Below are positions 6,562 to 45,657 of a DNA stretch of 64,000 bases, piece by piece. Numbering within the stretch: position 1 is the stretch's first letter; every line of letters starts with the position of its first letter. The notes beneath the pieces were generated by a model. The model did no database searches, was not told the origin of the DNA, and worked only from the letters and a program-made list of their open reading frames with translations. Made by a program: the position numbers and the translations under genes. The stretch comes from Lobosporangium transversale (lineage: Eukaryota), in assembly GCF_002105155.1 (NCBI RefSeq), contig NW_019028982.1:1240001-1304000 (forward strand), written 5' to 3'.

Positions 6562-7027
6562 AATTAAAACAAAGGTATCTTCTAGAAGCTATTGTAAATG
6601 AAACTTGGAAAGAAGAGAAGGATCATGGAAACCAGGATCTGGAGTGGCTCGAGGCCCAGTGCTTGGGACAGTAATAAGTAATTACACCAAAAAAAAAAAA
6701 AAAAAAAAAAAATCAACAACAACAACCAAATGTAAATTAGATACCACTGTAGACATTTATACCATTCGAAGTATATTGATGGCCTTCAGAACCATTAAAA
6801 CTAGATATAAGGCATGTTTATTAAGATTGATTTACATCTAGCATTTCAATGTTGTTCTATTTTATTTTATTTTATTATATTATATTATATTATATTCTAC
6901 TCTATTCTATTCTATATTAACTAGGGCATTGCCATGGAAAAGGTTTGGGTAAGTGAAAAGAGACATATAACATGCCTATATACAAAAGAAAAAGAAAAAA
7001 AAAAAAAAAAAAAAGTATTGAACTGTT

Positions 7028-9446
7028 TCAAAGGGCGAGAATGCGCTTGAACTCATCTACATATTTCTTTTTCGCCACAGCATGGTCCACGATTGGCTTG
7101 GGATATCTATCATACAAACATGTAAATGAAGGTTATCATTAATTTGTTAGCCCCGAATTAAGGCTTTAAAACTTTTGTGAGGAATCTACACGCCGCAAGA
7201 AGGACTCACCCAAGCTTAGCAAAATCCTTGGGATGCAAGATATGACTTGGGTCATGAATCTGCTTATCGTTCAGTCCCCTCAATTCAGGAACCCATTTAC
7301 GGATATAAGAGCCCTTTGGATCAAACCGCTGGGACTGAAGAAGTGGATTAAAGACACGAAAGTAAGGCTGCGCATCTGTTCCAGTGGAAGCACTCTATTT
7401 TTTAAATTACAGATGATTTAATTTGACATATTCGATTGCTGTAAAGGCAATGCGGCATAAAGGAAGGAAGGAAGGAAGGAAGGAAGGAAGGAGACCAAAG
7501 TCATTTGTAGAAACCTTACCCATTGCCAACCACCATTGTTGTTTGCTAGATCACCGTCGATGAGACTGTTCATAAAGTACCTTTCTCCTAGGCGCCAATC
7601 GATGAGCAAATCCTTTACGAGGAAACAGGCCGTGATCATGCGAAGACGATTATGCATATATCCTGTAGCATTAAGCTGCCGCATGCCTTTTTTTTTTTTT
7701 TTTTTTTTTTTTGTTATTATTATTAGCATTAACCGAGAATAATCATGGTGATTGTGTGATATTAGACAGTTGATATTATACGTGACAAAACCATACTTCA
7801 CTTTTTGTAATTTTTCCCTTGAGTGAGAACTTTTACCTGCATCGACAATGGGAAATCCGGTTTTATCCTCGCACCATCTCTGGAAATGCTCCATATTATC
7901 ACTCCATTGCACTTTTTCAGTTTTAGGCTGAAATGCACGGCCCATGCACACGCGAGGGAAAGAGATTAGGATATTTTTATAAAATTCCTATCGGAAGGAT
8001 GAACGTTGCAATAAAAAAAAATAATAATAAAAAAAAGTTGGACGTAATGTCTGACATGGTTTGGCTCTAGTAAGAAGATGTTAAGAAATAATAGCTTACC
8101 TTCCATCCCAATTCTCTAATCCATGCCTTGATACCCTCATCTCCCGAGACGATCTTGTTGTTATTGGCAGCTCTAGCAATCGCCACACACTGCCTCGTTG
8201 TAACTACTCCAGATGTAAGGTATGGGCTCATTAAACTTGTTCCATCTTGCACCGGTACATCTCGTGCCTCTCTATACTTCTTGACTTTGGATTGGAGGAA
8301 AGACTTTAGTCGCTCATGAGCTGCATCTTCGCCAGCTGGGTACAGCTCATTAACCATTTTTATGTCGAGCGAATGTGGATAAGAGCCAGAAGGGACTGTT
8401 TTGAAGATATCTGCAAAGATATCCTTTGCCTCGGGTGGGTTGGCTTCAGGCGGTCCAGTCAATTCCAAGTAATGCTGCTCAGTCTCAACAAGCTTGCACC
8501 AGTTATTGTAGTAAGGGGTGAACACAGAATAGGGGTTTCCTGTCTATCGTTGTTGTTGGGAATGAAGGGACAGGATTTAGTTTATGGCATTATTACAATG
8601 GCGTTCCTTTTTTTTTTTTTTTTTTTTTTTAGAATGACACCTCCTTTTACAGTATTCTACATATCCCAAACCTACTTTTGTCTTGATATCGGCTGGGTCT
8701 ACAATGCATTCACAATTACATTCCTCAACAGCAACGCCAGGAAGCTTCATCAATGACTTTTTGACGGCGGCATCTCTTCTCTGCTCATCAATCATCAGAT
8801 CGGCGTTCCAAAAGACATGACTGATATCCATCTCTTTGACGACCTGTTCCACTAAAGTCGGGATGTCGGCTATGTCCTTTGCAGTCTTGGTGACCAAAGG
8901 GATAGCTAGCCGATCTAGGTCCTTCTTTAGGCTAGTCAAATTACGCATCCAAAAGTCGATTTTGATGGGAGCCTCGTCATGCTCCTTCCATTCATCCTCG
9001 GAGATAATATAGAGGGCGATCAGGTGTCTGGCCCCTACTTTGGAACGCATAGAGGCTTCATAAAGGGCCTTATTATCCTGAAGTCGGAGATCAGTACGAA
9101 ACCACATGAGTGTATTCCTAGTTTTAATTGAAGGGTCATGCTGATCTTGCTCTTCTTCCTTGATAAAAACATTAATATCGTTGTTCGCATTGGGATTGTC
9201 GCCTTTATGTCTACTATGACCGTTGTTTTTCTTGCTATCATTCTTCCTAGTGCCGTAGGAAAGTGGGGTACTATGGGCGATCCTGGCGGCACGTTCAACA
9301 ATGGATTCAGAGGGATATATGGGTGCCTCCTGAGGCCAACCATTGCGCTTCCTGGAGCCTTCATGTAGGGGCTCTAGTTCATCTTCTGCAGCTCTCTTTT
9401 GTAATATGGGTATGTTGTGGAGCAAAGAATGATCAAGACGAGCCAT
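7028..9446 (-). CDS. PHR1: Class I CPD DNA photolyase (multi-exon)
   Basis: [100 protein letters not shown]. Stop TGA at 7028. Confidence 0.92.
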
Positions 9447-10119
9447 GAAGAGTAAAGGGGACGAACGAACTATGTGATGTAGAGAAAGAGATTTATAAAT
9501 GAGCGGAGGCAAAGCGACTAATCGAGTTGAAGAAGAGGGCATTTGAATTAAAAGCAATATGACTCTCAATCCAGTGGAAGTGCCCAAGGCTTTTTTGGAC
9601 AGTGTAAAAGTTTAGGAAGAAGGAGAGGGATCGATCAATGGGGGCAAATTCAGCTATACTTCTTTACTTGATTATTTTTATATGACCAAGGAGAACACTA
9701 GCCTACGCAAGAAACAGACAAAAGAGCTCTTGTGCGCATCAGCGACAGTGTAGCAGCCAATCAAAATAATGGGGGCGGTTAGGGTTTCATGTTGCTGTTG
9801 GTGGCGTATACATTTGTGGCAGATATGAATGTAGGCGTGATAGAAAAAAAAAAGAGCAATCTGACGTACTTGGACAATGCGCACAGGACATGTAGAGTTC
9901 GTTTTTGTGGTTAGGTAAGTTGATTAGTCTCACTGTTAAAGAAAATGTTCACCTTGTTCCGTATCCTGAGTTGTGAGTAAAATGATCGATAATAAAGGCA
10001 ACAATGACAGAAACAAACACTAATATCTCATATTTCATATCTCAAGCTTTCATTTGTTTAAAAAATATTCATTCAATTAAACAAGATTGTAAGCATACAA
10101 TTTTTTTTTTTTTTTACAT

Positions 10120-10330
10120 GTCGAAGCTGTGTATTGCCTTCTTCCACCTTAATAACAGCTTACATCCGTTCCAGTGCACTCCTTATCAGATTGTGACAGA
10201 CCCCCATTGGCGTCTCCTCCTCTCAGATCCGGCACACTCCTTCCCAAGGTTTCGGCATGCCTCTCAGAATGGTTCCTTGTCCATGGATTTCCTTTTTAAA
10301 TATCGACCTCTTTTCAAGGAAGAGTCGCCC
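10120..10330 (-). pseudogene. Relic of a Tc1-like transposase C-terminus
   Basis: Manual translation PWEGVCRI*EEETPMGVCHNLIRSALERM*AVIKVEEGNTQ resembles the Tc1 C-terminal pattern LW..V...W..IP...C..LI.SMP.R..AVI.AKGG.T. Confidence 0.5.
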
Positions 10331-10854
10331 TGGGACCAGCCTTTCCGTTTCTTATAGTTTTTTTTTTTTAAAAAATAACACAGAGTAACGCAACAAGGTA
10401 TTTCCTGTGCTAAATCCATTTAGTTAAGCTAATCGAAATTTTCTATGCCCACTACTCGTCATTCTTGTTGCATAGAAGCATAGGAAGCATAGAATGTCCT
10501 CCGAATCCATATGAACCTTGTTGATCCGGCTCATTACGAAGAAGCGGAGATGATTAAAGATAAGAAAGACCTGTCTAGGATTCGCAAATAACTTTGATTA
10601 GCTAACGTCGATGCTGCTTATCATCGTGAAACAAGTTTTTGACTCAATCACCAAAGGATTAATTTCCAGATCAACTTCGGTGTTCTACACATCCTGAGCA
10701 GTAACGGATACAATAAAAGGGGCCCTCCCTTCCCCTGATCCTCTAAGGCACACACTCTCAACATACTTAATCAGCCACTCTTTTTTTTAATCATCATCGA
10801 AACAAAGCAACATATCCTCCGATCCCTTAACTTATCCTCATTATAAAAAAAGAA

Positions 10855-12682
10855 ATGTCACCTCCACAAAACAAGTATGGGCCTGCGAAAGCCATTGAAT
10901 TTTATAATAAAAACACGGTCATCTTCTTGACAGGTGCTACGGGCTTCATTGGCAAGGCCATCTTGGAGAAGCTACTGCGTTCTTTCCCCCAGATCACAAA
11001 GTAAGTGCCCTTTTCTTTTGCTTTTTTTTTTTTTTTTCAAGTATCAGGTTCGACTGTAAGACAAGCGTTAATGTTTTGTTTTTTTATGAAAACATCAGGA
11101 TCTACTTGCTGATCAGGGTCTCGGGGAAGAAGACATTGAAAGATCGTATTGAGAATATATTTAGCAGCAGGATTTTTGATACTGTCAAGTCCCAATTCTC
11201 AAGTGCTCAAGAGTTTCAAGAAAAGATTGTCCGCAAGGTTGTGCCTGTGAAGGGAGATATTTCTGCCAATCATCTGGGTCTCTCAGACGAGGATATGGCT
11301 ATGGCCCAGGAAGATACCACAGTTTTCATCAACAGCGCTGCCTCTATCAAATTCAATGACCCGTTGAAGACTGCCCTTGAGGTAAAATATACGAAATACA
11401 AGAGTAACAATACCTGTCAAACAACACGCAGTAGATAACTTATTTTGTTTTTCTTTTTCTTTCTTTTTCTTTCAGATAAATACAAATGGCCCTCTCCGCA
11501 TATTCGAAATTGCCAAGGGCTGCAAAAATTTAGCTGCCATCGTTCATATCTCGACTTGCTTTGTCAACGCACCCATGTTTGAGCAACATATTGACGAAAT
11601 CATCTATCCGCACCCACTTGGTGATGATCCTGAAGCCATCTATGATATGCTGTCCACCAAGATGTCCTCCAAAGAGATAAAAGATTATGAGGAATCTGTG
11701 GTCCTCAAGGCTTACCCCAATACATACACATTCGCCAAGTCCTTGGCAGAACATTTGATAAAGAGCCGATATAGGGATATGGCTCTCCCTATTGTCATTG
11801 TCCGCCCTGCCATTGTCACTGCTGCCTACAAGGAACCAGTTCCTGGATGGGTAGAAGGGTCTGCTGCAACCAACAAAGCGATTGTGGCTGGTTCGATCGG
11901 TCTAATTCAAGAATGGATCGGTAACGAGGTAATTAAGCAGAAGTCAGTAAAAAAAAAAAAAAGAAAGAAAGAAAGAAAGAAAGAGCGCTATATTTATCAA
12001 AGTCAAGGCAAATATTGATGAGTGTTTCTATGTTTTCACAATAACCTTCTAGTCCGCTAAAGCAGACCTAGTTCCTGTCGATTTTGTGGTCAAAACGACC
12101 CTTCTCTCCGCCACGACTGCTGATCGCACACTCACAGAGCCTCGCATATATCATGTCGGTACCAGCTGCATTAATCCCATCACCTGGAGTCGCTTTGGTA
12201 TGTATATGGTCGCATACTGGCGAGCGGTTGCACCACCAAGCCAGCGAGTCTCAGATGACATTCGATTCGAACTTTACCCTCCTGCAGAATTCAAATATCG
12301 ATATAATACTCGCTTTGGAGGGGAGATCCGAACTTTAGCTCGGCACAAACATGACGAGGAGCGTAAAGTTTATATCTCCAGGGCAATGGTTGTGCCTACA
12401 GTTCTCATAGCTTTTTTGCAGTCTGAATGGTTCTTTGATGTAACCAATACATTAGTCCTTGATGATGCTGCACCTGCAGAGCTCAAGAGCGAACTCAAAA
12501 GCGGTATAGATTGGGACAGATACATGGAAGACTACAATGCAGGCGTGCAAGGGTTTATTTTGTGTGAGAAGGTCGACAGGCCCATTGTAACCGATTACAC
12601 TGCTGAATTGCGCCCAGTATCAGATACAAAGAGAGAAGGAAGTGCTGAAGTAACATTTATGGATATCATGGCCAAACTTTAG
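10855..12682 (+). CDS. Fatty acyl-CoA reductase (NAD_binding_4/male-sterility family), copy 1, 4 exons
   Basis: FLTGATGFIGKAILEKLLR, NSAASIKF, YTFAK (YxxxK), IVRPAIV, EPVPGWVE, DLVPVDFVV. Ends AKL. Confidence 0.88.
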
Positions 12683-12691
12683 GTCTTTATA

Positions 12692-13028
12692 CAATACCAA
12701 GCAAAACTATGCCAATGGTCGTCCCCTTTTCGTTTCCTAGAAATCGCTTATGTAGACATTGTTCATACTTGGCGTCAATAAAGGTCCCATCACCTTCTAT
12801 ATCATTATTATTTATTAAGTATGAAACTTTCAGATCGAATTTTAATTGAAATAACCATGGAAAATACTAGCCGGGAGTTGAAGGATAGGTGAGAATCGAT
12901 TGTGGATCGCAGCACCACATTATCAGGGTATTTATTAATTCATTCTCTATGCGTGGAATTGAGATATCCTATCTATTTGATCAAATATGCAAATTTTTAT
13001 TCAAGCAGGTCTTTGGGAGTGCTATTCC

Positions 13029-13062
<34 letters not shown>

Positions 13063-14482
13063 ATTCTTTCACTAGCCATCACCCATATCAATACGAAGTA
13101 TTGCAGCCTTTAGCTGCAAAGAAAGCTTGGAGCCTATGATACATTCTCGTGATAAGACTACAGCAGTACTCTATTGGGATCCTATACCACTCCACTGAAA
13201 TTCGTTGCCACAACTCATGACAGCTTTATGCTCGTTTTGGGTGCTTTGCAAGCCATCTCTCCAGCTTGGATTACATGTGTTCAATGAGGTTGAAGTCAAG
13301 AGACTGCGCTGGCCATTCCAAAAGCGTCCTTTTCTCTTTAGTCAGGTGCACTGACTCTAAATAGCTCCTGACAACCTTTGCCATATGCTTCGGGTCGTTG
13401 TCGTGCTGATAGATGAAACCGCCTTTTACTTTATCCCATTCGTGTAGCGCCATCTCTAGATCTTCCTGGAGGATTTTGATGCAAAGCTGTGAATCCAGGG
13501 TGTCGTCAATTAATGTAATGTATCTGGGTCCTTCCCATGAGAAGCAGGCCCATACCTTAAGATTGCCCTCCTCCAAACTTGACGGCCCCCCGTCCTGATC
13601 TGCGTTCTGTGCCCCGGAATATTGTCCCAGGCGCACTGAGCGCCATCGGAACAAATACGGTTAATTTTCGACTCGTCGGGCCAAACATTCCTTCTAAAGT
13701 CCACTTCTAGTATTTCCTAGGGGAACGTAGAGGCCCCTTAACATGTTGTTTTCGCAGAGCTGGTCGGCGTACATGCCTTTTGATTATTAAGCCTGACTCC
13801 TTGAGGCGTCGTCTGATTGTCGATGCGGAGACAGCCTCCGGCAAGGACTGACTGACCTTGGTAGCGGCTTCAACGGCGGACTTGAACACACCTCGTTTCA
13901 TGTTCAGCTTGAGATACTCTGTAGTTTTTGTAGGTACTTTCCGTGGTCGACCACGCTTTCTGATCGGCATGTCCTCCTTATTCTCTGCATATATCCTAGC
14001 GACCGTTCTTTGCGAAATACTGGCGCTAGCAGCCGCTTCTCGATCAGACATACCATTTAATATCAGCCTTTTGGCATTGTTGACCTTGCTTAGTGGAATC
14101 GGCTTCATATTCAGCATAGGTATGGTGAGAAGGAAGTTGAGCAAGTATGCGTAGAGAGAGGAAGGAGAGATTTTTTTTTTTTTTTTTTTTTTTTTTTCCG
14201 GCAATACAAGAGCAAAGATCATCATGAGCAACATTCGAGACCACTCCCAAAATTTTACCAAAGACCTGTTTGAAAAAAAAAAATAAAAAAATAAAAAAAA
14301 AAAAAAAATTAGCTATTTCAATTTAAAATCGAACTGAAAGTCCATACTTAATAATAATGATGCAGAAGGTGATGGGGCCTTTATTGATGCCAAATATGAA
14401 CAATGCCTACATAAGCGATTTCTAGAAAACAAAAAGAAGATATTAGAAGAAAGGGGGTCATTGGCATAGTTTTGCTTGGTAG
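12692..14482 (-). mobile_element. Decayed Tc1-like DNA transposon with long imperfect TIRs and TA flanks
   Basis: 12692-12854 is an inverted match to ~14311-14482 (TACCAAGCAAAACTATGCCAATG...TAATTGAAATA). An inner match is 13000-13016 vs 14258-14274 (16/17). TA at 12690-12691 and 14483-14484. Confidence 0.85.
13088..14108 (-). pseudogene. Tc1-family transposase pseudogene
   Basis: RGRPRK, VSASTIRRRLKESGL, VWPDESKI, QHDNDPKH, WPAQSLDFNLIEHM*, ELWQRISVEW...AAKGCNTSY*. Contains frameshifts and stops. Confidence 0.9.
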
Positions 14483-15618
14483 TATATATATATATACATA
14501 TAATATATATATATATATAATATATTCATTGACACACATCATGCATGTATTAAATAATATTTTTCTGCAAGTTTGAATCATATCTGTGGGATTGACGCTC
14601 TCTAACGGCGAGATAATGCAAAGAAACAGTTGGTTGTCAATGCTGGGGAATTTGGGGTCGAATTGAGTGGGGATGTGGTTCTTGACGTGGTTTGTGAAGC
14701 CCATCACTTCCAGCTTCTGTGATCAAAGAAGGAGCCAGAGTCTCGACTTGTTCTAAAGGTTGTTGGATCTTCCACGTGAGCATAATAAATCCAAGACAGA
14801 TGATTACCTTTATCTAATGAGCGATCTTGCGACCTCATTGTCCAAGTAAACCAGAGGTGCTTGATCTTACACTTGTTGTAGCGTTCATTCTTAACACAGC
14901 GGAGGTGATGACATTTGGCCCTGTCTTAAGTGCCAATCATCTGTTCTTCGTTTGTATTTAATAAAGCAATACAAATTATGCATACTTCTTTATTTGTTTA
15001 GGTTGCTGCAGATTTTTCCTGGTATTCCTTTTATTCACTTGTAAGCCTAACTCTTTTGTGCACTTTGACTGGGTTTTACACTTTGTGCCTGAGTAATTAC
15101 CTTTGTGCTCTCGTCCTATTTTGCCTTCAGTTGGGCTCACTTTGATGAAAAGATGTCTGCTAGTCAAACTGTATTCATGACCAGCTCCGTCTCTCGCCCA
15201 ATGTCCATGGTAAGGTGTAGGGAGGACTGATTGGCTACATGAACACACCGAAATGATCGTCTGCAAGCAGGTTGTCGCTGTCAGCAAAGGAGCAATTTAC
15301 TTGCCACTCATATTCAATACCTACAGACCATATTTTCTTTTGGTCATGGCAAGGCATTCCGTCCATCTGCATTCTTCCTTTTTCTCATCATTCATCTATT
15401 TCATCTCTTTCCTTTTCTTCTTTCCTTTCCGCGCTTCGTTATATTCCCTTCCGTCTCCTCACCGGTGCCCCTACCCGGATTGAAAGATATCTGGCTCCTT
15501 TCCTAATCCGTACATTCCTTCAACCCTTCACATCTCCTCCACTCCTTAACTCCATGCCACGCTATTTCACCTGTTCATAATCCTACTTCAATAGTCCAAT
15601 TCCAATCCTTATCCAACC

Positions 15619-20186: not shown

Positions 20187-21472
20187 TAAAAAAAGTTTCG
20201 TGGTTACTGATTGTCATTTCCTCACCTTTTTGTACGCTGTAGGATGAGATTTCGATTCATCAACAAAGTCTAACCGAGGAAAGAGAGCAACGCTCAAGAG
20301 TGTAAGTGTCGTAGGATTGGACATGTCCCCCTACGATGTGGCATCAAGACCATGATGAGCCTTTACTAACTTTATTTTAACAAACTGTAACTAGTGAACA
20401 AGCTCTGCAGGAGCAGCAATATCAATCCCACCAACTACAACAGCAAATTCAGTTGCAGCAAACTCAGCTCCATCAACAACAAACAGAGATTGTCAATCTG
20501 CGTGCTAGTTTGGAGGTAGAGCAGAGACAAACTGTTCTTCTTCAACAAAAACTCCAGGAGGAGCAACGGTTGAACAGCCAATACGGAAGGCGTGTTTCTA
20601 TAGATGGTGATCTCAACGGATCGTTTTTGATGGTGGAAAATAACGCAAATGGTAGCAATGGCATCAACGTTGGAGCTACTCCGGTGGTGATGACTGCTTC
20701 TTCTGATATCCCATTGAATATGATAGGCAACAACAACATGGTTTCACCTGGACCCGGCCATCCATTATCATCATCTGGCCCATTCTCGTCCATGACGACT
20801 ACAGCCACGTCATTAGCAACTGGAATTCAGCCTATTCGTGGTTTTGATGCTTCGTCATCCTCTTCATCATTGTTGTCAAACCAGATTAATGCAAGCTCAG
20901 CCCAGAGTGGCGTACAAGCTGCAGCACTTCCACCAATGGCACCTGCTATGACCCATGGAGGAATGGCCACATCGGTAGCAGGAATAGCAACCCCAGATAT
21001 CGAAGCTAAGCCTGGAATGATTCATCGTGGCAGCTCTAGTTCAATCACAGGAATCATAGCGAATGGAAACGTGGGTAATAACCGTTTATCGTTGCAAGAC
21101 TCGCTTGGATCTGCAGGGTCTTCAGCAACTACTTCAGGCGCAGCAGTGGCTGTTGGTATGCAAACTATTGAGGAATTGACAACTCAACTACAGCACCTCA
21201 TTAAGGAAAAGGAGAGGGTACGTACATAAGTGTTTTAGCATTGTTTCATTTGTACCGTGGTTCTGGAGAAATAATAATCACTTTCTTTACTTCTTTGTTA
21301 CCTACCCACTGTTCGTCCGCATCTAAATTAGCTACAAGCGGATCTGAGCAAGATCCCGATTTCAGGCGGTGGGCCGATGACGAGACGTAAGGCGGATATG
21401 CTCGAAGAACAAATGGATAAAACAGAGAGGGCGATTAGTAAGATTCGATTGAACATCCGTATGCAGTCATGA
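17661..21472 (+). CDS. Multi-exon coiled-coil protein with Ser-rich N-terminal half
   Basis: Exons join across GT-AG introns into heptad-rich segments. Last exon LQADLSKIPISGGGPMTRRKADMLEEQMDKTERAISKIRLNIRMQS*. Confidence 0.7.
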
Positions 21473-22697
21473 GACGAATGCTCTAAGTATATGAACAAAA
21501 TAAAAAAGGATAATACATAGAAGCTATCGACTTGTGCGGGCAAGATGACATGTCTGTCTGGTCTATCTCCAATCATTCTTCTTCCGTAATTAGTCCTATC
21601 CATATGAACAACTGTACTTTCGACATCGGACTTATTTGATTACTAAAATCAAATCATCGACTAGATGTACAATAGTCGAGGAACAAAATATAAAAAAACC
21701 CTTTTTTTTTTTTTTTTTTTTTTTGTTGTTGTGATGATTGAAAATGAATATCTTAATACCAAAACTAGGCTCTGGAGACTGCGCCCTCAAGATTCCAATT
21801 TATTTACTCTTATCGTACCCTTGCTGATCCAAAGCTAGCCTTCTTCGACTAAGTGATGTGTTGTTATCTTTAATGCCAACACAGTCGCCGTATGAGATCT
21901 TTGACGAGGAAACAGTGGAGGATGATAGTAGTACCAGGTAAGTCTGACACGAGCAAAAAAAAAATACTATAGTATCAGTGCAAGGGTATTTGGAATAGGA
22001 AATGATCAATATAGCCCAAAGCCCAAAGACCGCGATGTATACCATAATGCATTTTGTTTTCTACTATAGCCATTTACAGTTTTACCCTCCCACGCAGCAG
22101 CAAAATCGGATAAATCTAGGAAAAAATTGGTCGGTTCTGAATTCATCGAAAGTTCTTTGGCTCCTCCTTTCGACCAGATTGCAAAACCAAACAGAACTGT
22201 CCAGCTGTCTCTATTAAGGTTAAACGTGATCAAGAGGTCAAGCATCGAGATGAAAAAGCACCAAAGCTCACTTTTAGATCTGTTGGTTCAAAACTCACCT
22301 CTGAAAATCTCCAGCAAAGGTGCACTGTTAACTGATCCTCAAATGCCATAGACTGAATACGATAATGCCATTTATATCCAACCATTCTGGGACAAGGTAT
22401 CATGCTTGACCACAATAGATGAAGCATCATTTCTACTCCCAGCAAAGGCCACAAATGAACAATAAAAAGCTTTGGATCGAAGTGCGACCAATGAATTCAA
22501 TCAAGACCAGTTGATCAAGCACAACTCCATAAAACCAAGCGAGCTGCAGGGGTTGAGCGAACGGGACAGATTTGCTTTGTTATGCGCTTGTCGTGCCCTT
22601 GTCGCGCCAGGTGGCGAAGTTGAAAAAGAAAAGGATCATCGCATAAGAGAATTAAGGAAATCCTTCATCTGTCATCACTCATTCAGTTGTTACCGAA

Positions 22698-25226
22698 ATG
22701 ACAGAGCATCAATACCAACAATTCCGAAAGGCCGACATTATTGAAAAAGTTTGTGTCAGAATTGCTTCCACCTTTGCAAGCAATGTCAACTCGTCTTGCT
22801 ACGTAAGTTTGCAAGACATTCAAGACGTGTTTCCAGATGCATTGCGCTTCAAGTTGGACGGGGATCCCATCCCGTTCCTTATAGACCCTAATGGGAACAG
22901 GTGCGTTATTAATTATCGTGCGCCTTATCAATCGCAATTGTCTCTGAAAAAGATAAAGGAACTAAATCTGGTGTATCTCTTTATTAGAATCGAACCTCTG
23001 CGCATTGCATTTTATCCTTACAAGATCCTGGATGTCATTACAGATGTACCGCAGCCCAGCGACAGTAACAACGGCAGCAACGCCACCATTCGTTTGCCTA
23101 CATTAAAAAATTCGGCAAATCTGGTCTCTCAGGATCCTCTTTCACCATTATTAAAGTTGATTGAATGTCTCAGCTCGTTTACGCTCACCGACGCACAAAA
23201 GGAGACGATCGTCTTCAACTTTGAAAAGGCTGAAAAGTTGCTATTGGAGGCCAGCGAGAAGGATGCCAAGATTGCTCTGCTGGAAACCAAAGAAAAAGAC
23301 AACAAGCTGGTCAATCTGTTGGAGGTCAGAGAATATAATGATAAAATAGTTAGTCTGCTGTTGGAAATCAAAGAAAAGGACGATAAGATAGTTAGTCTGC
23401 TGTCGGAGGCTAAAGAGAAGGATGTTGAGATGCTCAAGTTGCAAGACAAGATGCTTGGGCTACTATCTGGGACTAGGGAAAAGGACGACAGAATGCAAAG
23501 TCAAGCCCTCAACAGACTTGCCAGCCTTCAAAAGCGTGCTCATGCTATCCTCTCCCAGAACTTTGAGCTTCACGAATGTCCATTTCCTCGATTATTTATA
23601 ATTTTGCCTGTCGACCGCCCCAGATGGGACTCAGCGGATGTCTTGAAGAACAAGTTCCGTCTCCATTTCCTTTGTGAATCTGGTGGCCACACCACAATGC
23701 CCGGCAAAAGTAGCCAGAGTCAAATCCATATTACCAAACATGACGGATACGAAGTCCGAGATTGCACAGGAATCGTCAGGAAGTATGGAAAATATATGCT
23801 CATCCTCTTACATTGGCTCAAGTTGGGAATGCCTTCGTCTGCTTCTTCAGCACCAGACTCAAGTTTAATCGATATCGGTACCGACTGTTTAATGGGCTAT
23901 ATGGATGCGCTCTCTAAGAAGCATCCGGACTTGAACAACATCAATACAATCGATGACTATGAAGGACTTGAGAGAGCTGAGCTCCGAGAGCTGAGAACAT
24001 TTCTTCGAACCAACAATGATGACAGACAAATTGACGATTTGTACAGGGTTGCGACCGGAACAGGGCATTTTAAATGGGTTTGCCTCGATCACTATCGTCC
24101 GACGTTAAAAGAGCAAGAACAGAAGGCGTTTGAAAGTGCAGTAATGGCCAATGGTGGTAAATATGACGCGTACATTGGTAAAGTGATTGTCACTTTGGAA
24201 TCCAGAACCAAAGCTGAAAAATTCTTCACGATCCTAACCAATGCAAGACGTGTTTATGAGTTGGATATCACATTCGATTGGGATTGGACCGAGGTTGAGC
24301 TTGAAGCATTTGAGAATGTCTTAAAGGTATCAAGTGTATCGATTCTCCGGCTTGGGCTTCAATGGTTTCAAGCAAGCGAAGGAAGCGCCAGCAGGGAACT
24401 ACTTTCAATATTCATGCGATATGAAATACTTGTTCGCATCATAGGACTCTGCAAGATGAAAATGATTCATATTGTTCTATCTCCGGATCTCATAAAGCTT
24501 CTCAACTTACAACCCAAAAGATCGTCACATCTCCATAGGTTATCCTTCGAGATGAGTTTTCGAGGAATTGGAGCCAGTGAATTACTAGTACTTATAAATT
24601 CACTCAAGACTAACAAGGCTTTAACTATTTTGGACTTGGGATACAACTCGATCGGGAATGATGGAGTTGTAGCGCTGTCAGAGGCACTCAAGGTTAACAA
24701 AACCTTGACCGCTTTGGACATGAAGTATAACTTTATTGGGGATGAAGAAGCTCTGGCACTGTCAAAGGCGCTCGAGACAAACACTACTTTGACCGCTTTG
24801 AACCTGGAGTGTAACTCAATAGGGAAAGAAGGAATCCTGGCACTGTCCGAGGCACTCAAGGTCAACACGACTTTGAGTACTTTGAATCTGGGGACCAATT
24901 CACTTGGGAAGGAAGAAGCTCTGGCATTAGCAGAGGCACTGACGACTAACACGGCTTTGATCTCTTTGTGCTTAAGTTGGAACCCAATCGGGAATGGAGG
25001 AGCTGTGGCATTAGCAGAGGCACTCATGGTCAACAATACTTTGACCACTTTGAACTTGGGTTTCAATGCATTTGGGACTGAAGGAGCTCTGGCATTAGCA
25101 GAGGCACTGGCGACGAACACTGCATTGACCACTGTGGACTTGAAGGGTAACTCAATCGGGATTGAAGGGGCCTTTGCACTATCAGAGGCGCTCCAGTTTA
25201 ACGTGGCTTTGACGCTTTATACATGA
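22698..25226 (+). CDS. Coiled-coil plus RNI-like 28-aa LRR protein, copy 1 (intron 22901-22987)
   Basis: 14-aa LLEAKEKDDK-type repeats, central FELHECPFPRLFIILP...FRLHFLCE...KWVCLDH domain, 7 LRRs. Confidence 0.8.
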   Translation: MTEHQYQQFRKADIIEKVCVRIASTFASNVNSSCYVSLQDIQDVFPDALRFKLDGDPIPFLIDPNGNRCVINYRAPYQSQLSLKKIKELNLVYLFIRIEPLRIAFYPYKILDVITDVPQPSDSNNGSNATIRLPTLKNSANLVSQDPLSPLLKLIECLSSFTLTDAQKETIVFNFEKAEKLLLEASEKDAKIALLETKEKDNKLVNLLEVREYNDKIVSLLLEIKEKDDKIVSLLSEAKEKDVEMLKLQDKMLGLLSGTREKDDRMQSQALNRLASLQKRAHAILSQNFELHECPFPRLFIILPVDRPRWDSADVLKNKFRLHFLCESGGHTTMPGKSSQSQIHITKHDGYEVRDCTGIVRKYGKYMLILLHWLKLGMPSSASSAPDSSLIDIGTDCLMGYMDALSKKHPDLNNINTIDDYEGLERAELRELRTFLRTNNDDRQIDDLYRVATGTGHFKWVCLDHYRPTLKEQEQKAFESAVMANGGKYDAYIGKVIVTLESRTKAEKFFTILTNARRVYELDITFDWDWTEVELEAFENVLKVSSVSILRLGLQWFQASEGSASRELLSIFMRYEILVRIIGLCKMKMIHIVLSPDLIKLLNLQPKRSSHLHRLSFEMSFRGIGASELLVLINSLKTNKALTILDLGYNSIGNDGVVALSEALKVNKTLTALDMKYNFIGDEEALALSKALETNTTLTALNLECNSIGKEGILALSEALKVNTTLSTLNLGTNSLGKEEALALAEALTTNTALISLCLSWNPIGNGGAVALAEALMVNNTLTTLNLGFNAFGTEGALALAEALATNTALTTVDLKGNSIGIEGAFALSEALQFNVALTLYT

Positions 25227-39191: not shown

Positions 39192-40975
39192 ATGTCACCT
39201 CCACAAAACAAGTATGGGCCTGCGAAAGCCATTGAATTTTATAATAAAAACACGGTCATCTTCTTGACAGGTGCTACGGGCTTCATTGGCAAGGCCATCT
39301 TGGAGAAGCTACTGCGTTCTTTCCCCCAGATCACAAAGTAAGTGCCCTTTTCTTTTGCTTTTTTTTTTTTTTTTTCAAGTATCAGGTTCGACTGTAAGAC
39401 AAGCGTTAATGTTTTGTTTTTTTATGAAAACATCAGGATCTACTTGCTGATCAGGGTCTCGGGGAAGAAGACATTGAAAGATCGTATTGAGAATATATTT
39501 AGCAGCAGGATTTTTGATACTGTCAAGTCCCAATTCTCAAGTGCTCAAGAGTTTCAAGAAAAGATTGTCCGCAAGGTTGTGCCTGTGAAGGGAGATATTT
39601 CTGCCAATCATCTGGGTCTCTCAGACGAGGATATGGCTATGGTCCAGGAAGATACCACAGTTTTCATCAACAGCGCTGCCTCTATCAAATTCAATGACCC
39701 GTTGAAGACTGCCCTTGAGGTAAAATATACGAAATACAAGAGTAACAATACCTGTCAAACAACACGCAGTAGATAACTTATTTTGTTTTTCTTTTTCTTT
39801 CTTTTTCTTTCAGATAAATACAAATGGCCCTCTCCGCATATTCGAAATTGCCAAGGGCTGCAAAAATTTAGCTGCCATCGTTCATATCTCGACTTGCTTT
39901 GTCAACGCACCCATGTTTGAGCAACATATTGACGAAATCATCTATCCGCACCCACTTGGTGATGATCCTGAAGCCATCTATGATATGCTGTCCACCAAGA
40001 TGTCCTCCAAAGAGATAAAAGATTATGAGGAATCTGTGGTCCTCAAGGCTTACCCCAATACATACACATTCGCCAAGTCCTTGGCAGAACATTTGATAAA
40101 GAGCCGATATAGGGATATGGCTCTCCCTATTGTCATTGTCCGCCCTGCCATTGTCACTGCTGCCTACAAGGAACCAGTTCCTGGATGGGTAGAAGGGTCT
40201 GCTGCAACCAACAAAGCGATTGTGGCTGGTTCGATCGGTCTAATTCAAGAATGGATCGGTAACGAGGTAATTAAGCAGAAGTCAGTAAAAAAAAAAAAAA
40301 GAAAGAAAGAAAGAAAGAAAGAGCGCTATATTTATCAAAGTCAAGGCAAATATTGATGAGTGTTTCTATGTTTTCACAATAACCTTCTAGTCCACTAAAA
40401 CAGACCTAGTTCCTGTCGATTTTGTGGTCAAAACGACCCTTCTCTCCGCCACGACTGCTGATCGCACACTCACAGAGCCTCGCATATATCATGTCGGCAC
40501 CAGCTGTATTAATCCCATCACCTGGGGTGAGTTTAAAACGTATTTGAATTCATACCTTATCGTAGCTGGACCACCAAGTCAACGGATCTCAGATGACATT
40601 CGGTGCGATTTTTACCTTCCTGCAGAATTTGAACGTCGATTTGAAGCCCGCTTTGGAGAGCTGATCCGAACTTTGGATCAGCACAAAGATAATGAGAAGC
40701 TCAAGCGTCAAATCATCATGGCAAAGAATCTGATCATCGACTTCAAAGCCTTTACCTTAAACCAATGGTTCTTTGATGTGACCAATACATTGGCCCTTGA
40801 CGATGCTGCACCTGAAGAGCTCAAAAGCGAGCTCAAGAGCGGGCTCAAAGAAGGTATGGATTGGCACAGATATATGGTGTGCTACGCCTCAGGCGTGCAT
40901 CGCTTTATTCTAGGTGAGGAGGTCGCTATACCCTATGGAATGGTCGCAAAAGAAAAGATCACGGGCAGACTCTAG
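39192..40975 (+). CDS. Fatty acyl-CoA reductase, copy 2
   Basis: Nearly identical to copy 1 up to ~40525, divergent afterwards. Ends GRL. Confidence 0.88.
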
Positions 40976-40998: not shown

Positions 40999-41378
40999 CT
41001 AGGCAGGCGATCCGTGGCTTCGCTCACGGTCGCCCCGGTCTGGTGCTTTGATTCGTTGGGAACAGTGGTTTTTTTTTTTTTTTTAAAGGAAAATATTAAT
41101 AGATAAATAACAAAATAAAGCAGAACCGCTGGTTTTGTCTTTGCACCAACGATACACGTCCAACAATTTGCATAGTTTCTGACAATTAGATTTTGGGAAA
41201 TGTGTTGAGTCCAAGGGTTCTTACTAAATGAATTGCAGGTACTATCTGTTAATATGTAAGGCATTTAAAGTTAGTCCAGAAATTCAGGGACAAGAGATTA
41301 GGTAGAAAGGATACAGGAGACGGAAATAAACAGAACTTACAAATTCTTGTGGGTGTGCCGGCACCCAAATACTTGTGC
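40999..41378 (-). ncRNA. Candidate Fanzor omega-RNA region
   Basis: Positional inference: lies between the Fanzor stop and the element 3' end, with several hairpins. No expression evidence. Confidence 0.35.
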
Positions 41379-43020
41379 CTAGTGTCTTGCGCGCTTTGCA
41401 GCCGGAGCAGGCGACTCTTCCGTGGGCTTGTACTTTGCAGGTCTCCCTTGCCTCTCAATTTGTGCAAGACCGATTCTTGCGATGTTTTCCGCTTCTACTG
41501 CGTCACGGCCGAAGAATACCTTACATGTCCAGCAATATTTAGAGCGAGGGTACACCGCTTCTAAAAAGCTATCGCAGAGAAGTCGGGGACAGCGGGCGCT
41601 GGTGTAAAATTCGTGCGCCCCTACAGCGAAGTGTCCTCGTGCTTTGACCTAAGCGCTTCAAATGGCAGTCATTTATCAGCAAGGGTTCTATGGCTCTCCA
41701 GCTTTTTCTTATTTTTTTAAAAAAAAGCCATATCTGTGTGACAAGGTGTCTCGTTACTGCAGTGTGCTTGCTGGGAACTCCTTTACTACTTTCAAAGGAC
41801 CCTAGGCCGACGACACTCGCTGTACCGCGTAGTCGAACGTAGCTCGTTGAGCCTTTCGTAAGTCCCATTTTTTTTAGGTGTCATCTGGACTCGTAGAACT
41901 CTTGAAGCACATCCAAATTCTTTGATCCTGTCTGTGTCTAGGACTCCTCGTTCATCCATTGAAAGCACTCATTGTACGTATCCCTTCCAAATACAGGGAT
42001 GGCGCTCTCAACCTCAATCATTCCTTTTTCACGCTTCCTTTTGTTCAGCAGGTGATTGAAGTGGAGGACGGGAAGGTACAGGAACCTACTTCTCACCTTT
42101 AACGTTTGCCGCAAGTTAGGGTTGTAAGGGTCCAGCGAGGAAAACGTAAGGGCGTTAGCAATACCAGGATCGCACCCAACAATGGTTGTGGAGTTTGCGG
42201 ATGGGCATCGCTCTGGTTCGTTGAATGTGAGCTCAACGTATTCAAGCAGTTTGGAGCTCCTCTTAATCGAACGACTCGAATTATCTAGAGATCTGTAACT
42301 TAAGGGCGTCATTCGAACCCATTTGAGTTCGATATGTTCGAATCGATTAGGAGCACTGCCCGTACGCTATCGCCATGGACATGGACGTGGACAAAGACAT
42401 GAACAAACGGCTCAAATTCGACCAACTGCTGTCCCTAGCGAAGCGTTGTAAGCGTTTAGTTTTTAAACTGTCTTGCAATACATCGCTTACGATATCTGGA
42501 TACTAATGAAGAGAGTTTTGGCTTTGCAACTGGGATGTTGTCCTTGATGATCTGACAGAGCTTTGATGCTGGCCCGCCAGGAGCCTTGAGCACTTCTTTC
42601 TGACCCCAGCCTCTATTCGTTTATTCTTCCAAAAGCGCTCGAACAGCATTTCCAGAGATTCCAAGTAAAGGGACGCTTCATCATTGGATTGCAACTGGCG
42701 GAGGGTTGAGAACAAAGAGCTTTTGAAGGAGTGAGAGCATTGGAAGGATAATTTACAAAACTAAAGGTACCGAATAGGACATGAACCTTTACAGTATTCA
42801 GTTTATGATTAAACGGATATATGGTTACCTCAATTAAAGACCACCATCCCATATCCCCTGCGCATGTTTTTTTGTGGCTGCTTGCGGCACATCTGTTTAT
42901 CAACAACCTATTCCTACTCGCTATAGCCTCATCAAATAACATCGCCTTCTTCTTAGCGGAATAACGCCTCACAGTGGACGTGCTCTTTCGTAAGGCACTA
43001 CTTTGGTCCCTACACACACT
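41379..43020 (-). pseudogene. Fanzor (TnpB/Cas12-like RuvC nuclease) pseudogene with intron
   Basis: RuvC-I IVGCDPG (D 42169-42171), WDLRKAQRATFDYAV helix, VVGLGSF, RuvC-II GAHEFYTS (E 41610-41612), zinc finger CPRLLC/CWTC, RuvC-III GRDAVEAENI (D 41502-41504). Stop at 41379. Confidence 0.88.
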
Positions 43021-43240
43021 TCTTTAAGTGTTTGATAATGGTCTCTTCCTTAACGCTCGGAGTAGAGACACGCACCATTACTACTTGTCTGTCGCAAGGC
43101 AGTTATTTATTTAAGCCAAACAATTTCTCTTAAATACTCCTACACTATTTCGGTGATCAAACTAGTAAAGTAATCAAAAGAGTCAATGTTGTGCGTTTTC
43201 TAACAGTGCCAAGGCCTCTTGGTTGTCGATCAAGGCACCC

Positions 43241-45657
43241 TTATTTATAGAGAGTCAAAGCCGTGTTGGTCTTGAGTGCCCCTAACAGTGCCGAAGCTCC
43301 TTCGTCCCCAATTAAGTAGTTGTGCCTCAAGTCCAAACTGGTCAAAGTTCTGTTAGTCTTGAGTGCCCCTGCCAGCGCCAGAGCTCCTTTAGTCCCAATC
43401 GAGTTGTATTTTAAGTCCAAAGCGGTCAAAGTGGTATTAACCTTGAGCGCCTCCGATAGTATCACAGCTCTTTCATTTCCAACTGAGTTGTTCCCCAAGA
43501 CCAAAGTAGCCAAAGCTGTGTTAGCTTTGAGTAAATTTATAAGTGCTTGAAATTCACTGGCTCCAATCGATCGAAAGCTCATCTCAAAGGACAACTTATG
43601 AAGTTGTGGAAGATGTGGCGGTCTTTTGGGTCGTAAAGTGAGGAGTCTTGTAAGATCTGAAGTTAGAACAATATGAATTAATTTCATCTTGCAGAATTCT
43701 ATGATGCGGACAAGTATTTCATATCGCATAGATGGTGGAAGTGGCTCCCCGCTGACATTTTCTTGAAGCCTTCCAAGTCCAAGTCGAAGAATCGATACAT
43801 TTGACACCTTTAAGATATTCTCAAATGCTTCAAGATCAGACTCGGCCCAATCCCAGTCAAATGTGATGTCCAACTCGTAAACACGTCCTGCATTGGTTAG
43901 GACATTGAAGAATTCTTCAGCTCTGGCTTTGGATCCCAGTTTGATAACCAGTTTGCCAAGGTGGGAGTCGTATTTGGCATTATTCATTTTCACTACATCT
44001 TCAAACGCTTTCTGCCTTTTTTCCTTATACATCGAACGATAGTGGTTGTGACAAACCCATTTGACATAGCCTGTTTCGGTCGTGACCCTGTACAGGTTAC
44101 CAAGGTCCTTGTTCCCATCTGTAATCCGAAAAGATGTGCCCAGCTGTCGGAGTTCAGTTTTTTTGAGCCCTTCAAAGTCATTAATTGTGCTGATCTTGTT
44201 CAAGGCCGGATACTTCTTGGAGAGCGCTTGTAAATAGTCGATTGAATAGTCAATACCGGCATCGATTAAACTTGGGTCTGGTGCCAGAGAATCAGGTAAG
44301 GCCATTCCCAGCTTGAGCCAATGTAAGAGGATGAGCATGTACTTTCCATACTTGCGAAAGAACCCTGTGCAGTCTCGAACTTCATATCCATCATGTCTAG
44401 CAATGTGGATTTGACCCGGGTTAGGTTTGTTGGCCATCGCGGTGTAGTCTCCACATTCACATAAGAAATGGACGCGGAACTTGTTCCCCAAGAGTTTTAC
44501 TGGGTCCCACTTGGTGCAATTAAGAGGCAAAATTATAAACAAACGAGGAAATGGGCATTCATGAAGCTCAAAATCCTGAGTGAGGATAGAATGAGCATGC
44601 TTTTGATGCATGGTAAGGTTGTTTAAGGCCTGGGCTTGCATTTCATCGTCCTTCTTCTTAGTCTCCATTTCACCACCCTTCTTCCTAGCCTCCAATCGTA
44701 GTTTAAGCATCTCGTCTTGTATTTTGAGCATTTCACCATCCTTCTCTTTGGATTTCAATAGCATATTAATTATCTCGTCGTCCTTTTCCTTGAGCTCCAA
44801 TTGCAGATTAGCTATCTTTTCGTTAATCATCTTGCTGTCCTTCACTTTGGCTTCCAGTAGATTAATCTTGGCATCCTTCTCGCTGGCTTCCATCAACAGA
44901 TTAATTATCCTGTCATCCTTTTCTTTGGCTTCCACTAAATTGGTCATCTTGTTGTCCTTCTCTTTGGCTTCCAGCAGGCTAATCTTGGCATCTTTCTCGC
45001 TGGCCTCCAATAGCAATTCCGCAATCATTGCAAGGTTAGAGTTGATCGTCTCGATTTGAGCGTTGTCGGGAGTAGTAAGAAATGAATTGAGGCATTGAAT
45101 CAAGTTCGATAATGGCAAAAGAGGATCCTGTGTAGTCAGATTTACCGACTTTCTCAAAGCAGGTAAACGGATGGCGGCGTTGCTGTTACTTTTACTACTG
45201 CCTTTGCCGTTGCTGCTGCTTTTGATGCTATTGCTACTAGTGTTGCTGCTGCTGCTGTTGGTATTGGTATTGGTGTTGGCATTGGTGTTGCTGGACCGTG
45301 GCACTCCTGTAACGACGTCCAAGATCTTGTAAGGATAGTATGCAATGCGTGGAGGTTCGATTCTAATAAGGAGAGAGACACCAAATTTAGCTCCTTCATC
45401 TTTTTTTTCAGAGACAATAACAATTGATAAGGCGCACCATAATCAACAAAGTACCTGTTGCCATTAGGGTCTACAAGGAATGGGATGGGAAGTTCACCCA
45501 ACTTGAATCGCATTGCATCTGGAAACACATCTCGAATGTCTTGCAAACTTATGTAGTAGGACGAGTTGTCATTGCCTGAAAATTTGGAAGCATTCCTGAC
45601 GCAAACTGTTTCGATGACGCCGGCTCTTCGGAATTGTTGGTATTGAAGCTTCATCAT
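43241..45657 (-). CDS. Coiled-coil plus RNI-like LRR protein, copy 2 (intron 45363-45454)
   Basis: Colinear paralog of 22698-25226 with 3 full LRRs and an N/S-rich insertion. Confidence 0.8.

What the first reader, a model, noticed from the sequence alone, without database searches (positions are those of the whole stretch)
41379..43020. Hidden Fanzor (eukaryotic RNA-guided TnpB-like nuclease) inside a Helitron-ended element
Seen: minus-strand fragments join in the expected order. They read TTIVGCDPGIANALT (RuvC-I D), LYLPVLHFNHLLNKRK, LQEFYESR*HLKK/WDLRKAQRATFDYAVQ and VVGLGSFESSKGVPSKH. An ATG-less exon at 41648-41379, absent from the ORF track, reads VKARGHFAVGAHEFYTSARCPRLLCDSFLEAVYPRSKYCWTCKVFFGRDAVEAENIARIGLAQIERQGRPAKYKP..., giving RuvC-II E, a four-Cys zinc finger and RuvC-III D. 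Established: the D...E-zinc finger-D layout is that of TnpB/Fanzor, and Fanzor1 proteins ride in diverse eukaryotic transposons including Helitrons. This copy is dead: stops at 41938 and 41881, a frameshift in the A-run near 41870, an apparent deletion and a broken donor. Inference: intact relatives elsewhere in the genome may define an uncharacterised programmable nuclease family.
Basis: partly seen in the sequence, partly recalled or inferred. Interest (0 to 1): 0.92.

Follow-up and report, generated by a model that had tools for sequence, protein, structure and literature searches.

The report
Dead piece of flap-nuclease-fused Fanzor
This is the broken tail end of a many-copy jumping gene in a soil fungus, whose full-length relatives join a Fanzor-type DNA cutter (predicted to be RNA-guided) to a FEN1/EXO1-like second nuclease that would likely trim the cut ends, a pairing I found in no paper I could search.

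Summary
The motifs and lesions are real, but the Fanzor piece spans only 41243-42264. It is a dead, 5'-truncated copy of a multicopy family whose closest proteins are named Lobosporangium transversale. Its RuvC half matches SpuFz1 best, and one paralogue is already in a published Fanzor1 table.

The Helitron reading is not supported for the family. Other copies end at 41243 on TA with different flanks, 200 bp before the Helitron-like end.

Full-length relatives (about 1,000-1,500 aa, seven Mortierellaceae genera) begin with a FEN1/EXO1/XPG-type 5' nuclease with intact acidic residues. L. transversale gene models tile the same fusion. It likely cuts empty sites by RNA guidance and trims the ends for copy-back repair; this is untested.

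The predicted guide-RNA region also carries a full set of splice signals ending three bases before the element end. No RNA test was possible.

I found no paper on the fusion. This scan noted it before on other DNA, in smut fungi. The locus is debris; the family is a new Fanzor1 variant.

The parts
41734..42264 (-). Remnant of the penultimate exon of a Fanzor1 gene: RuvC-I Asp (42171-42169), two stops, a frameshift near 41870 and a 31-nt deletion near 41814. It is cut off at its 5' side at 42264.
   Evidence: X-bridged read-through is 84% identical (gaps counted) to P0008 residues 179-453
41649..41733 (-). 85-nt intron with a dead donor (AT for GT) and an intact TAG acceptor
   Evidence: GT in another copy; same position in L001
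41379..41648 (-). Last coding exon: RuvC-II Glu seven residues before the first Cys, four-Cys zinc finger, RuvC-III Asp, stop codon
41243..41378 (-). 136-nt non-coding tail from stop codon to element end; predicted omega-RNA scaffold region
   Evidence: Repeated in other copies up to 41243; position matches SpuFz1 as described in PMC10432273; expression not tested
41350..41367 (-). 6-bp hairpin with a 6-nt loop, candidate stem-loop 1 of the omega RNA
   Evidence: Pair probabilities 0.80-0.96 without flank, 0.11-0.19 with this copy's flank; z -0.94, not significant
41246..41340 (-). 95-nt candidate spliceosomal intron in the tail: GTAAGT donor, ACTAAC branch motif (41275-41270), CAG acceptor three bases before the element end
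   Evidence: One of 3 such strict sets on both strands of the window; donor and acceptor kept in diverged copies seen as loose ends; no RNA evidence
41243..41250 (-). Right end of the family: AACAGA followed by TA, likely a target-site dinucleotide
   Evidence: Depth step at 41240-41249 and other flanks behind the same motif
40999..41041 (-). Separate Helitron-like 3' end (GC-rich hairpin, CTAG, then T) in the 3' flank of a fatty-acyl-reductase-like gene; not part of the Fanzor repeat unit
   Evidence: Fold z -2.46; shared with other loci only over about 43 nt (loose ends at 41041 and 40998)
42265..43103 (.).

Best explanation
This is a dead, 5'-truncated copy of a multicopy fungal Fanzor1 element whose full-length gene encodes a FEN1/EXO1-like 5' nuclease fused in front of the Fanzor, and the intact protein would likely cut transposon-free sites under RNA guidance and likely trim the cut ends so that the cell copies the element back in.

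Shown: the lesions; the multicopy unit and its right end; the Fanzor1 fold; the fused FEN-like fold with its acidic residues; and overlapping L. transversale gene models that run from the FEN-like start to this exon.

Inferred from known Fanzor1 biology: the tail from stop codon to TA is the omega-RNA scaffold, the next 15 or so flank bases are the guide, and the target motif ends in TA.

Inferred by me: the FEN-like domain resects or removes 5' flaps at the break, which favours homologous repair over end joining. Long-range movement likely needs a transposase supplied in trans.

More tentative: the tail can be spliced. The unspliced form fits the known stem 1 / linker / stem 2 / TA / guide layout, so splicing would compete with guide-RNA formation.

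Odds by step: dead Fanzor1 fragment 0.97; fusion is the family's full form 0.9; both sites active in intact members 0.7; FEN-like domain serves break repair or homing 0.5; tail intron really spliced 0.6.
For: Family and copy number: 23 relatives, all named L. transversale, 61-93% identical where aligned, except 51% coverage for one. DNA-run depth is 4,313-12,049 over 41206-42277 against 109-127 in the flanks (run X1; depth is not a copy number). Sharp end at 41243 with other flanks.

Fanzor1: profile A5 hits SpuFz1 at E 1.9e-8, ahead of Fanzor2 at 5.1e-7. The P0008 model hits SpuFz1 at E 5.7e-9. A paralogue sits in branch FZ1.

FEN-like domain: profile A4 hits Rad2, XPG, FEN1 and EXO1 from E 1.8e-9. 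The P0045 model, pLDDT 91, hits FEN1 at E 4.9e-11. 17 of 23 aligned proteins keep all seven acidic positions; 6 of these also keep D-E-C4-D.

Fusion: 21 of 22 fetched proteins of 900 aa or more hit both profiles. P0184 runs from the FEN-like start to this exon, and P0064, P0065, P0181, P0182 and P0008 overlap at 72-92%.

Precedent: restorative homing (PMC13565253, passages); poxvirus G5, a FEN1-like enzyme used in break repair by recombination (PMC5499597, passages), was the top Atlas hit at 0.95.
Against: No activity, RNA or empty site was seen. The FEN-like half is absent from this window, so its link to this copy rests on gene models from elsewhere, and those models are themselves fragments.

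The 21-of-22 count is biased, since the proteins were found with a fusion as query. P0190 (919 aa, partial) has the C-terminal part with no FEN-like hit, and long Mortierella FZ1 proteins with other N-termini exist.

Single-sequence Pfam support for the N-domain is thin: 1 of 19 proteins passes the XPG_I cut-off and 0 of 6 had any XPG hit. Structural TM-scores to Fanzors are only about 0.4, on a model with 134 of 454 residues under pLDDT 50.

The tail folds no better than shuffles (z 0.54, 0.84, 0.24), and this copy's flank disrupts both stems in the predicted fold. The left end and any transposase are unknown.
Confidence: 0.7

Rival explanations
1. The fusion protein is its own mobiliser: RNA-guided cutting plus 5' trimming or flap removal drives copying of the element from its 3' end into new sites without a separate transposase. 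That would be a new kind of eukaryotic mobile element.
For: This copy keeps its 3' end and is cut off at the 5' side. No transposase family was hit in the 25 family proteins scanned with Pfam. Both active sites are kept across proteins only 20-50% identical. 3'-anchored, 5'-truncated Fanzor copies are described for CRe-1/2/3 (PMC3627910, passages).
Against: Flanks differ between copies, which simple homing to a guide match does not predict. One truncated copy is not a pattern. The TA end fits a DDE transposase acting in trans, as for Spu-1, which has no transposase between its ends either. The left end was not seen.
Confidence: 0.15
2. One reading: the family is a non-autonomous Helitron carrying Fanzor1, ending at the hairpin-CTAG at 40999.
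For: A Helitron-like end lies 244 bp downstream on the same strand. Fanzor1 in Helitrons is known. The 2.1 kb between the two host genes is a patchwork that a Helitron could have captured.
Against: 41042-41242 is single-copy, and other Fanzor copies leave the window sequence at 41243. Other holders of the Helitron-like end share only about 43 nt with this site. The family's own end has no subterminal hairpin or CTRR.
Confidence: 0.07
3. The spliced tail, not the unspliced one, is the guide RNA: removing 41340-41246 joins stem-loop 1 to ATA plus flank, so guide formation needs the spliceosome.
For: The acceptor lies three bases before the end. The chance of a strict signal set ending in a given 6-nt stretch is about 1.4e-4, with criteria chosen after seeing the site. 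The segment is 66% pyrimidine and laid out like the 93-nt candidate intron at 20302-20394. The region beyond stem-loop 1 is said not to be critical (PMC11423790, section 5).
Against: The spliced scaffold would be 41 nt with no second hairpin, while all three solved Fanzor1 RNAs have one. PpFz1 omega RNAs carry similar GTAAG and AACAG words only about 20 nt apart inside the mature RNA, so these words can be structural.
Confidence: 0.2
4. The FEN-like domain acts on RNA or on the R-loop (maturing the omega RNA, or clearing the displaced strand) and has no role in break repair.
For: Some XPG_I-family enzymes act on RNA, such as herpesvirus UL41 (PMC5499597, passages). The omega RNA must be cut out of a longer transcript.
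Against: The best structure and profile hits are DNA 5' nucleases. Fanzor1 proteins without this domain obtain their RNA in yeast.
Confidence: 0.2

Closest known systems
Fanzor1 of Spizellomyces punctatus (SpuFz1, element Spu-1; PDB 8GKH, 9CEU; Bao and Jurka 2013, Saito et al. 2023)
   Same: Best profile and structure hit. RuvC D...E-x6-C4...RD layout; short non-coding tail between stop and element end; end on TA; many copies with no transposase seen.
   Different: SpuFz1 is 633-638 aa in one ORF with 30-33-nt inverted repeats. This family is about 1,000-1,500 aa with an N-terminal FEN-like nuclease, has a coding intron and splice signals in the tail, and its left end is unknown.
FZ1-branch entries from Mortierellaceae in Saito et al. 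2023, supplementary file 3 (ORZ22893.1, KAG0216617.1, KAG0243527.1, KAG9072621.1)
   Same: ORZ22893.1 matches P0019 of this family by eye. Several long entries begin with FEN-like motifs by eye.
   Different: They are listed mostly as hypothetical proteins. 'XPG' and 'PIN domain' occur 0 times in that file, and 'XPG', 'exonuclease', 'flap' and 'fusion' 0 times in the main text.
FEN-like 5' nucleases (FEN1, EXO1, XPG/Rad2, poxvirus G5)
   Same: Fold, helical arch region, H3TH-like segment and seven acidic positions.
   Different: About 12-15% identity; fused to a TnpB-family nuclease in a repeated element and not a housekeeping gene; activity untested.
Helitron-borne Fanzor1 CRe-1/2/3 of Chlamydomonas
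   Same: Intron-containing Fanzor1; copies intact at the 3' end and often cut off at the 5' side.
   Different: CRe ends match Helitron2 ends with hairpins. This family's end has no hairpin and is separate from the nearby Helitron-like end.
IStrons (IS605/IS607 TnpB elements with a group I intron; PMC10690162, abstract only)
   Same: Intron and omega RNA share the element's 3' end, and splicing and guide formation compete.
   Different: Bacterial, self-splicing and shown by experiment. Here the signals are spliceosomal, cover only 95 nt of the tail, and are only predicted.

Membership tests
Fanzor (TnpB family) | C-terminal motif D-X(125-275)-[TS]-[TS]-X-X-[C4 zinc finger]-X(5-50)-RD (PMC3627910) | tested here: met
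   11 of 23 paralogue models keep all four motifs
Fanzor (TnpB family) | [quoted passage not shown] | tested here: met
   HEFYTSARC at 41615-41589: six residues lie between E and the first Cys
Fanzor1 | Closer to Fanzor1 than to Fanzor2 or TnpB by profile, structure and tree | tested here: met
   paralogue placed in FZ1 in a published table; I built no tree
Fanzor1 | Multicopy, in a eukaryotic transposable element with a defined 3' end | tested here: met
   5' end not seen
Fanzor1 | Expressed omega RNA from the 3' end, with a flank-derived guide | not testable with these tools
   No run on record as RNA was listed; folds are inconclusive
Fanzor1 | RNA-guided, TAM-dependent DNA cleavage | not testable with these tools
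   Needs a bench assay; this copy is dead
Helitron (family vehicle) | 3' hairpin plus CTRR (or Helitron2 hairpin) at the end of the repeated unit | tested here: not met
   Unit ends at 41243 with no subterminal hairpin; the Helitron-like end is 200 bp beyond, across single-copy DNA
Helitron (family vehicle) | 5' TC end and RepHel gene or autonomous partner | tested here: inconclusive
   No RepHel hit among 26 of the window's ORFs scanned; no genome held
Tc1/mariner-type non-autonomous element | TA target duplication and terminal inverted repeats | tested here: inconclusive
   TA at the right end in most flanks shown; left end missing; the window's Tc1-like element has different ends
FEN-like 5' nuclease (N-domain of full-length relatives) | FEN/XPG PIN fold with helical arch and H3TH | tested here: met
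   absent from the window copy
FEN-like 5' nuclease (N-domain of full-length relatives) | Seven Asp/Glu metal ligands (PMC5499597) | tested here: met
   17 of 23 aligned proteins, including L. transversale P0064
FEN-like 5' nuclease (N-domain of full-length relatives) | 5' exonuclease or flap activity | not testable with these tools
   Needs a bench assay
Spliceosomal intron in the 3' tail | Donor, branch point and acceptor in usual spacing | tested here: met
Spliceosomal intron in the 3' tail | Spliced transcripts | not testable with these tools
   No RNA holder listed

The most novel reading that the evidence does not exclude
A distinct class of fungal mobile elements encodes one protein with two nucleases, an RNA-guided Fanzor and a FEN1/EXO1-like 5' nuclease, that cuts and resects to drive its own copying. 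A spliceosomal intron overlapping the guide-RNA scaffold switches the transcript between messenger and guide. That would be a natural cut-and-resect gene drive enzyme and a eukaryotic counterpart of IStrons.
Probability: 0.2. Interest if true: 0.9.

Novelty: new variant of a known kind. Interest (0 to 1): 0.62.

Why it matters
What Fanzors do in their own hosts is still open. A Fanzor that carries its own intact 5' nuclease points to break processing and homologous repair as the job, and makes this testable with two point mutants in one protein. Engineers fuse such nucleases to editors (PMC12386499, search listing only), so a natural fusion is of practical interest. Candidate intact members exist in ordinary soil fungi (P0027, P0120, P0179). 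The splice signals in the tail may reveal how a eukaryote makes or limits an omega RNA from a spliced transcript. The locus itself is only a fossil.

Tried and rejected
No whole genome is held, so copies could not be aligned and the left end, target duplication and empty site were not seen.

No RNA holder listed. Run X5 is only guessed to be RNA; it showed no joint at 41340/41246 among the rows shown, with 35 joints and 465 loose ends not shown. I draw nothing from it.

DNA of relatives' 3' tails could not be obtained. The metagenome scan gave 2 loci that stop before the tail. Viral scans gave nothing except one weak zinc-finger match, L004, not followed up. Prokaryote scans gave nothing. So conservation of the tail intron across species is untested.

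A single-protein PDB search with P0027 gave only low-complexity hits. The six-sequence profile gave SpuFz1 and EXO1 only at E 0.05 and 0.15; deeper profiles were needed.

The Helitron hairpin motif in viral contigs gave one match inside apparent coding sequence, rejected as chance. A strict hairpin-CTAG scan missed the bulged hairpin at 41041-40999 and flagged 41379 on the plus strand. I rejected that one because family proteins end in RARR, which would remove the T after CTAG.

The shared GGGTGC...ACCCAC words with the SpuFz1 RNA were set aside: by my count they fall mostly in the part shown to be dispensable.

42265-43103 stays unidentified: no Pfam hit for four ORFs, no family match, no match in the window beyond the neighbour's 3' UTR. 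The Atlas did not answer for it.

The idea that the LRR gene upstream was truncated by the insertion was rejected; it aligns with its paralogue past the stop.

The last homologue search added only 2 new proteins, so the range outside Mortierellaceae is poorly sampled.

Full report
1. Observation. Contigs of other copies confirm three of them from outside: two more A in the run near 41870, 28 letters bridging 41815 to 41813 (a net 31-nt loss here), and GT at the donor that reads AT at 41733. Metagenome locus L001 has a 94-nt GT-AG intron at the same codon boundary. The last exon alone hits PF07282 weakly (E 0.0055). It finds 23 proteins among 103 candidates, all named Lobosporangium transversale, so the window likely comes from that species.

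2. Extent. The window holds only residues 179-453 of paralogue P0008. Other copies continue upstream of 42264 with the family's INW codons, and this one does not (loose ends at 42264). The stretch 42265-43300 matched none of 186 fetched proteins. In run X1, depth is 4,313-12,049 over 41206-42277 and 109-127 on both sides; the tool warns that this is no copy number, and one run may be the window's own source. In 10-base bins depth in X3 goes from 9.6 to 201 at 41240-41249. Loose ends there show the same terminal motif followed by at least four other flanks; 12 of 29 rows were shown. The family therefore ends at AACAGA-TA, 41250-41243.

3. Helitron. A bulged GC-rich hairpin followed by CTAG|T lies at 41041-40999 (z -2.46, 3 of 200 shuffles as good). 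Other loci share only about 43 nt of it. The 200 bp between it and the Fanzor end are single-copy. It is a separate element end. This one copy could sit inside or have been captured by a Helitron, but the family is not Helitron-ended.

4. Fanzor1 membership. A 50-sequence profile of the C-terminal part hits SpuFz1 at E 1.9e-8, then mimivirus Fanzor2 at 5.1e-7. An AlphaFold model of P0008 (mean pLDDT 72.5) hits SpuFz1 at E 5.7e-9 and PpFz1 at 1.3e-6, with TM-scores near 0.4. The Glu lies six residues ahead of the zinc finger, as in Fanzors. Saito et al. 2023 list ORZ22893.1, the same sequence as P0019 by eye, in branch FZ1 (supplement). The family is thus catalogued, though not described.

5. 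The fusion. A search for longer relatives gave four proteins of 998-1186 aa. A library-wide search with P0026 gave 832 hits, of which the best 150 were listed. Their N-terminal 330 residues form a FEN-like nuclease. A 28-sequence profile hits Rad2, XPG, FEN1 and EXO1 from E 1.8e-9. A model of P0045 at pLDDT 91.4 hits FEN1 at E 4.9e-11 and EXO1 at 1.4e-10. The Atlas puts poxvirus G5 and viral XPG-type clusters first (0.95, 0.94), which is a lead and no proof of origin. Of 22 fetched proteins of 900 aa or more, 21 hit both profiles; the query biases this count. Named fusions or near-complete fusions come from Mortierella, Linnemannia, Entomortierella, Dissophora, Actinomortierella and Benniella, with unnamed ones on 4-5 kb contigs. 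Of 23 aligned proteins, 17 keep all seven acidic positions, and P0026, P0027, P0098, P0120, P0171 and P0179 also keep D-E-C4-D. In L. transversale, P0064 is the FEN-like half, P0184 runs from the FEN-like start to the exon seen in the window, and six models overlap at 72-92% and together tile residues 1-1181 of P0026. No full-length model from this species turned up, so the family may be dead there. Against universality: P0190 and chytrid relatives show no FEN-like hit, though they may be partial.

6. The tail. Between stop and end lie 136 nt. They hold a 6-bp hairpin, then GTAAGT at 41340, ACTAAC at 41275 and CAG at 41248-41246. Only 3 such strict sets occur on both strands of the window (13 with a loose donor; resampled mean 2.3), so one ending within a given six bases has a chance near 1e-4 to 6e-4, with criteria set after the fact. 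Diverged copies keep GTAAG and the CAG, and one has a shorter gap between branch motif and acceptor; an element end would be conserved anyway. Without flank the unspliced tail folds into stem 1 and a second stem that closes just before TA and covers both splice sites (pair probabilities 0.6-0.96). That is the layout of solved Fanzor1 RNAs, with the target duplication inside the scaffold. But the folds are no better than shuffles, a 6-nt complement is expected 0.09 times by chance, and the flank breaks both stems. I favour unspliced as guide, with splicing competing, as in IStrons; the reverse stays open.

7. Mechanism. Known: TnpB cuts the empty site and gene conversion restores the element; Fanzor1 is an RNA-guided nuclease. 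Known from general biochemistry (recalled): 5' resection commits a break to homologous repair, and EXO1 and FEN1 act on such ends and flaps. Inferred: the fused domain supplies this step at the cut. Movement to new TA sites likely needs a transposase in trans; the Tc1-like element in the window has other ends.

8. Literature. Searches of the held library: Fanzor+Lobosporangium 0; Fanzor+Mortierella 0 (41); Fanzor+FEN1 3, none on this by listing; TnpB+XPG 2, one listed, unrelated; no Fanzor paper among the 30 listed of 2,494 in a broad search; searches showed no paper on a fusion or a spliceosomal intron in an omega RNA by listing. What I saw: PMC3627910 passages and sections 5 and 12; PMC10432273 passages and term searches of supplements (file 2 unreadable); PMC10530073 passages, with supplementary file 2 not searched, which may hold domain associations; PMC10711439, PMC10691335, PMC13565253 and PMC5499597 passages or term counts; PMC11423790 passages and section 5; PMC10690162 abstract and outline. 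Repbase and most subscription journals were not searchable. This scan noted FEN1-like plus Fanzor fusions in two smut-fungus windows and a spliced Fanzor tail elsewhere; these are unchecked notes, and I had reached both ideas before reading them (notes).

9. Verdict. The locus is a fossil of a catalogued Fanzor1 branch. The family's two-nuclease architecture is well supported and appears undescribed; its function and the tail intron are untested. Interest 0.62; new variant of a known kind.

Noticed in passing
window 10795-12575 and 39133-40925 (+): Two copies of a fatty-acyl-CoA-reductase-like gene (NAD_binding_4, Sterile), 92.6% identical over 1.8 kb and 28 kb apart. Each has a transposon end just after its stop codon.
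   Followed up: partly
window 12688-14488: Tc1/mariner-like element with long inverted repeats (79% over 180 nt) and a transposase fragment at 13707-14312 (HTH_Tnp_Tc3_2, E 5.6e-6, below cut-off).
   Followed up: partly
window 22656-25226 (+) and 43241-45442 (-): Two paralogous intron-free genes with coiled-coil and C-terminal leucine-rich repeats, about 74% identical, differing in repeat number; many more copies by depth.
   Followed up: partly
window 42270-42345: Short hairpin-rich repeat (z -1.95) with short inverted ends between two TA dinucleotides, abutting the 5' break of the Fanzor piece; possibly a MITE linked to the truncation.
   Followed up: partly
window 42346-43103 (-): Single-copy DNA with several 50-136 aa open stretches that look like a decayed gene; no family found.
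   Followed up: partly
window 43115: An exact-match contig of run X5 ends here with 23 unaligned letters, near where 3' UTR similarity between the two LRR paralogues stops (43104); it may mark a transcript end if X5 is RNA.
   Followed up: no
PMC10432273 supplementary file 3: Other long Mortierellaceae FZ1 proteins (1,300-1,800 aa) have different, non-FEN N-termini, and L. transversale has a second subfamily (XP_021884711.1).
   Followed up: no
PMC10432273 supplementary file 5, rows 58-59: PpFz1 omega RNAs carry GTAAG and end-proximal AACAGA words like those in this family's tail.
   Followed up: partly
window 7418-9611 (-), 27867-33187 (+), 36487-36924 (+): Ordinary host genes: a photolyase/cryptochrome-like gene, a UDP-glucose:glycoprotein glucosyltransferase and a Cnl2/NKP2 protein.
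   Followed up: no
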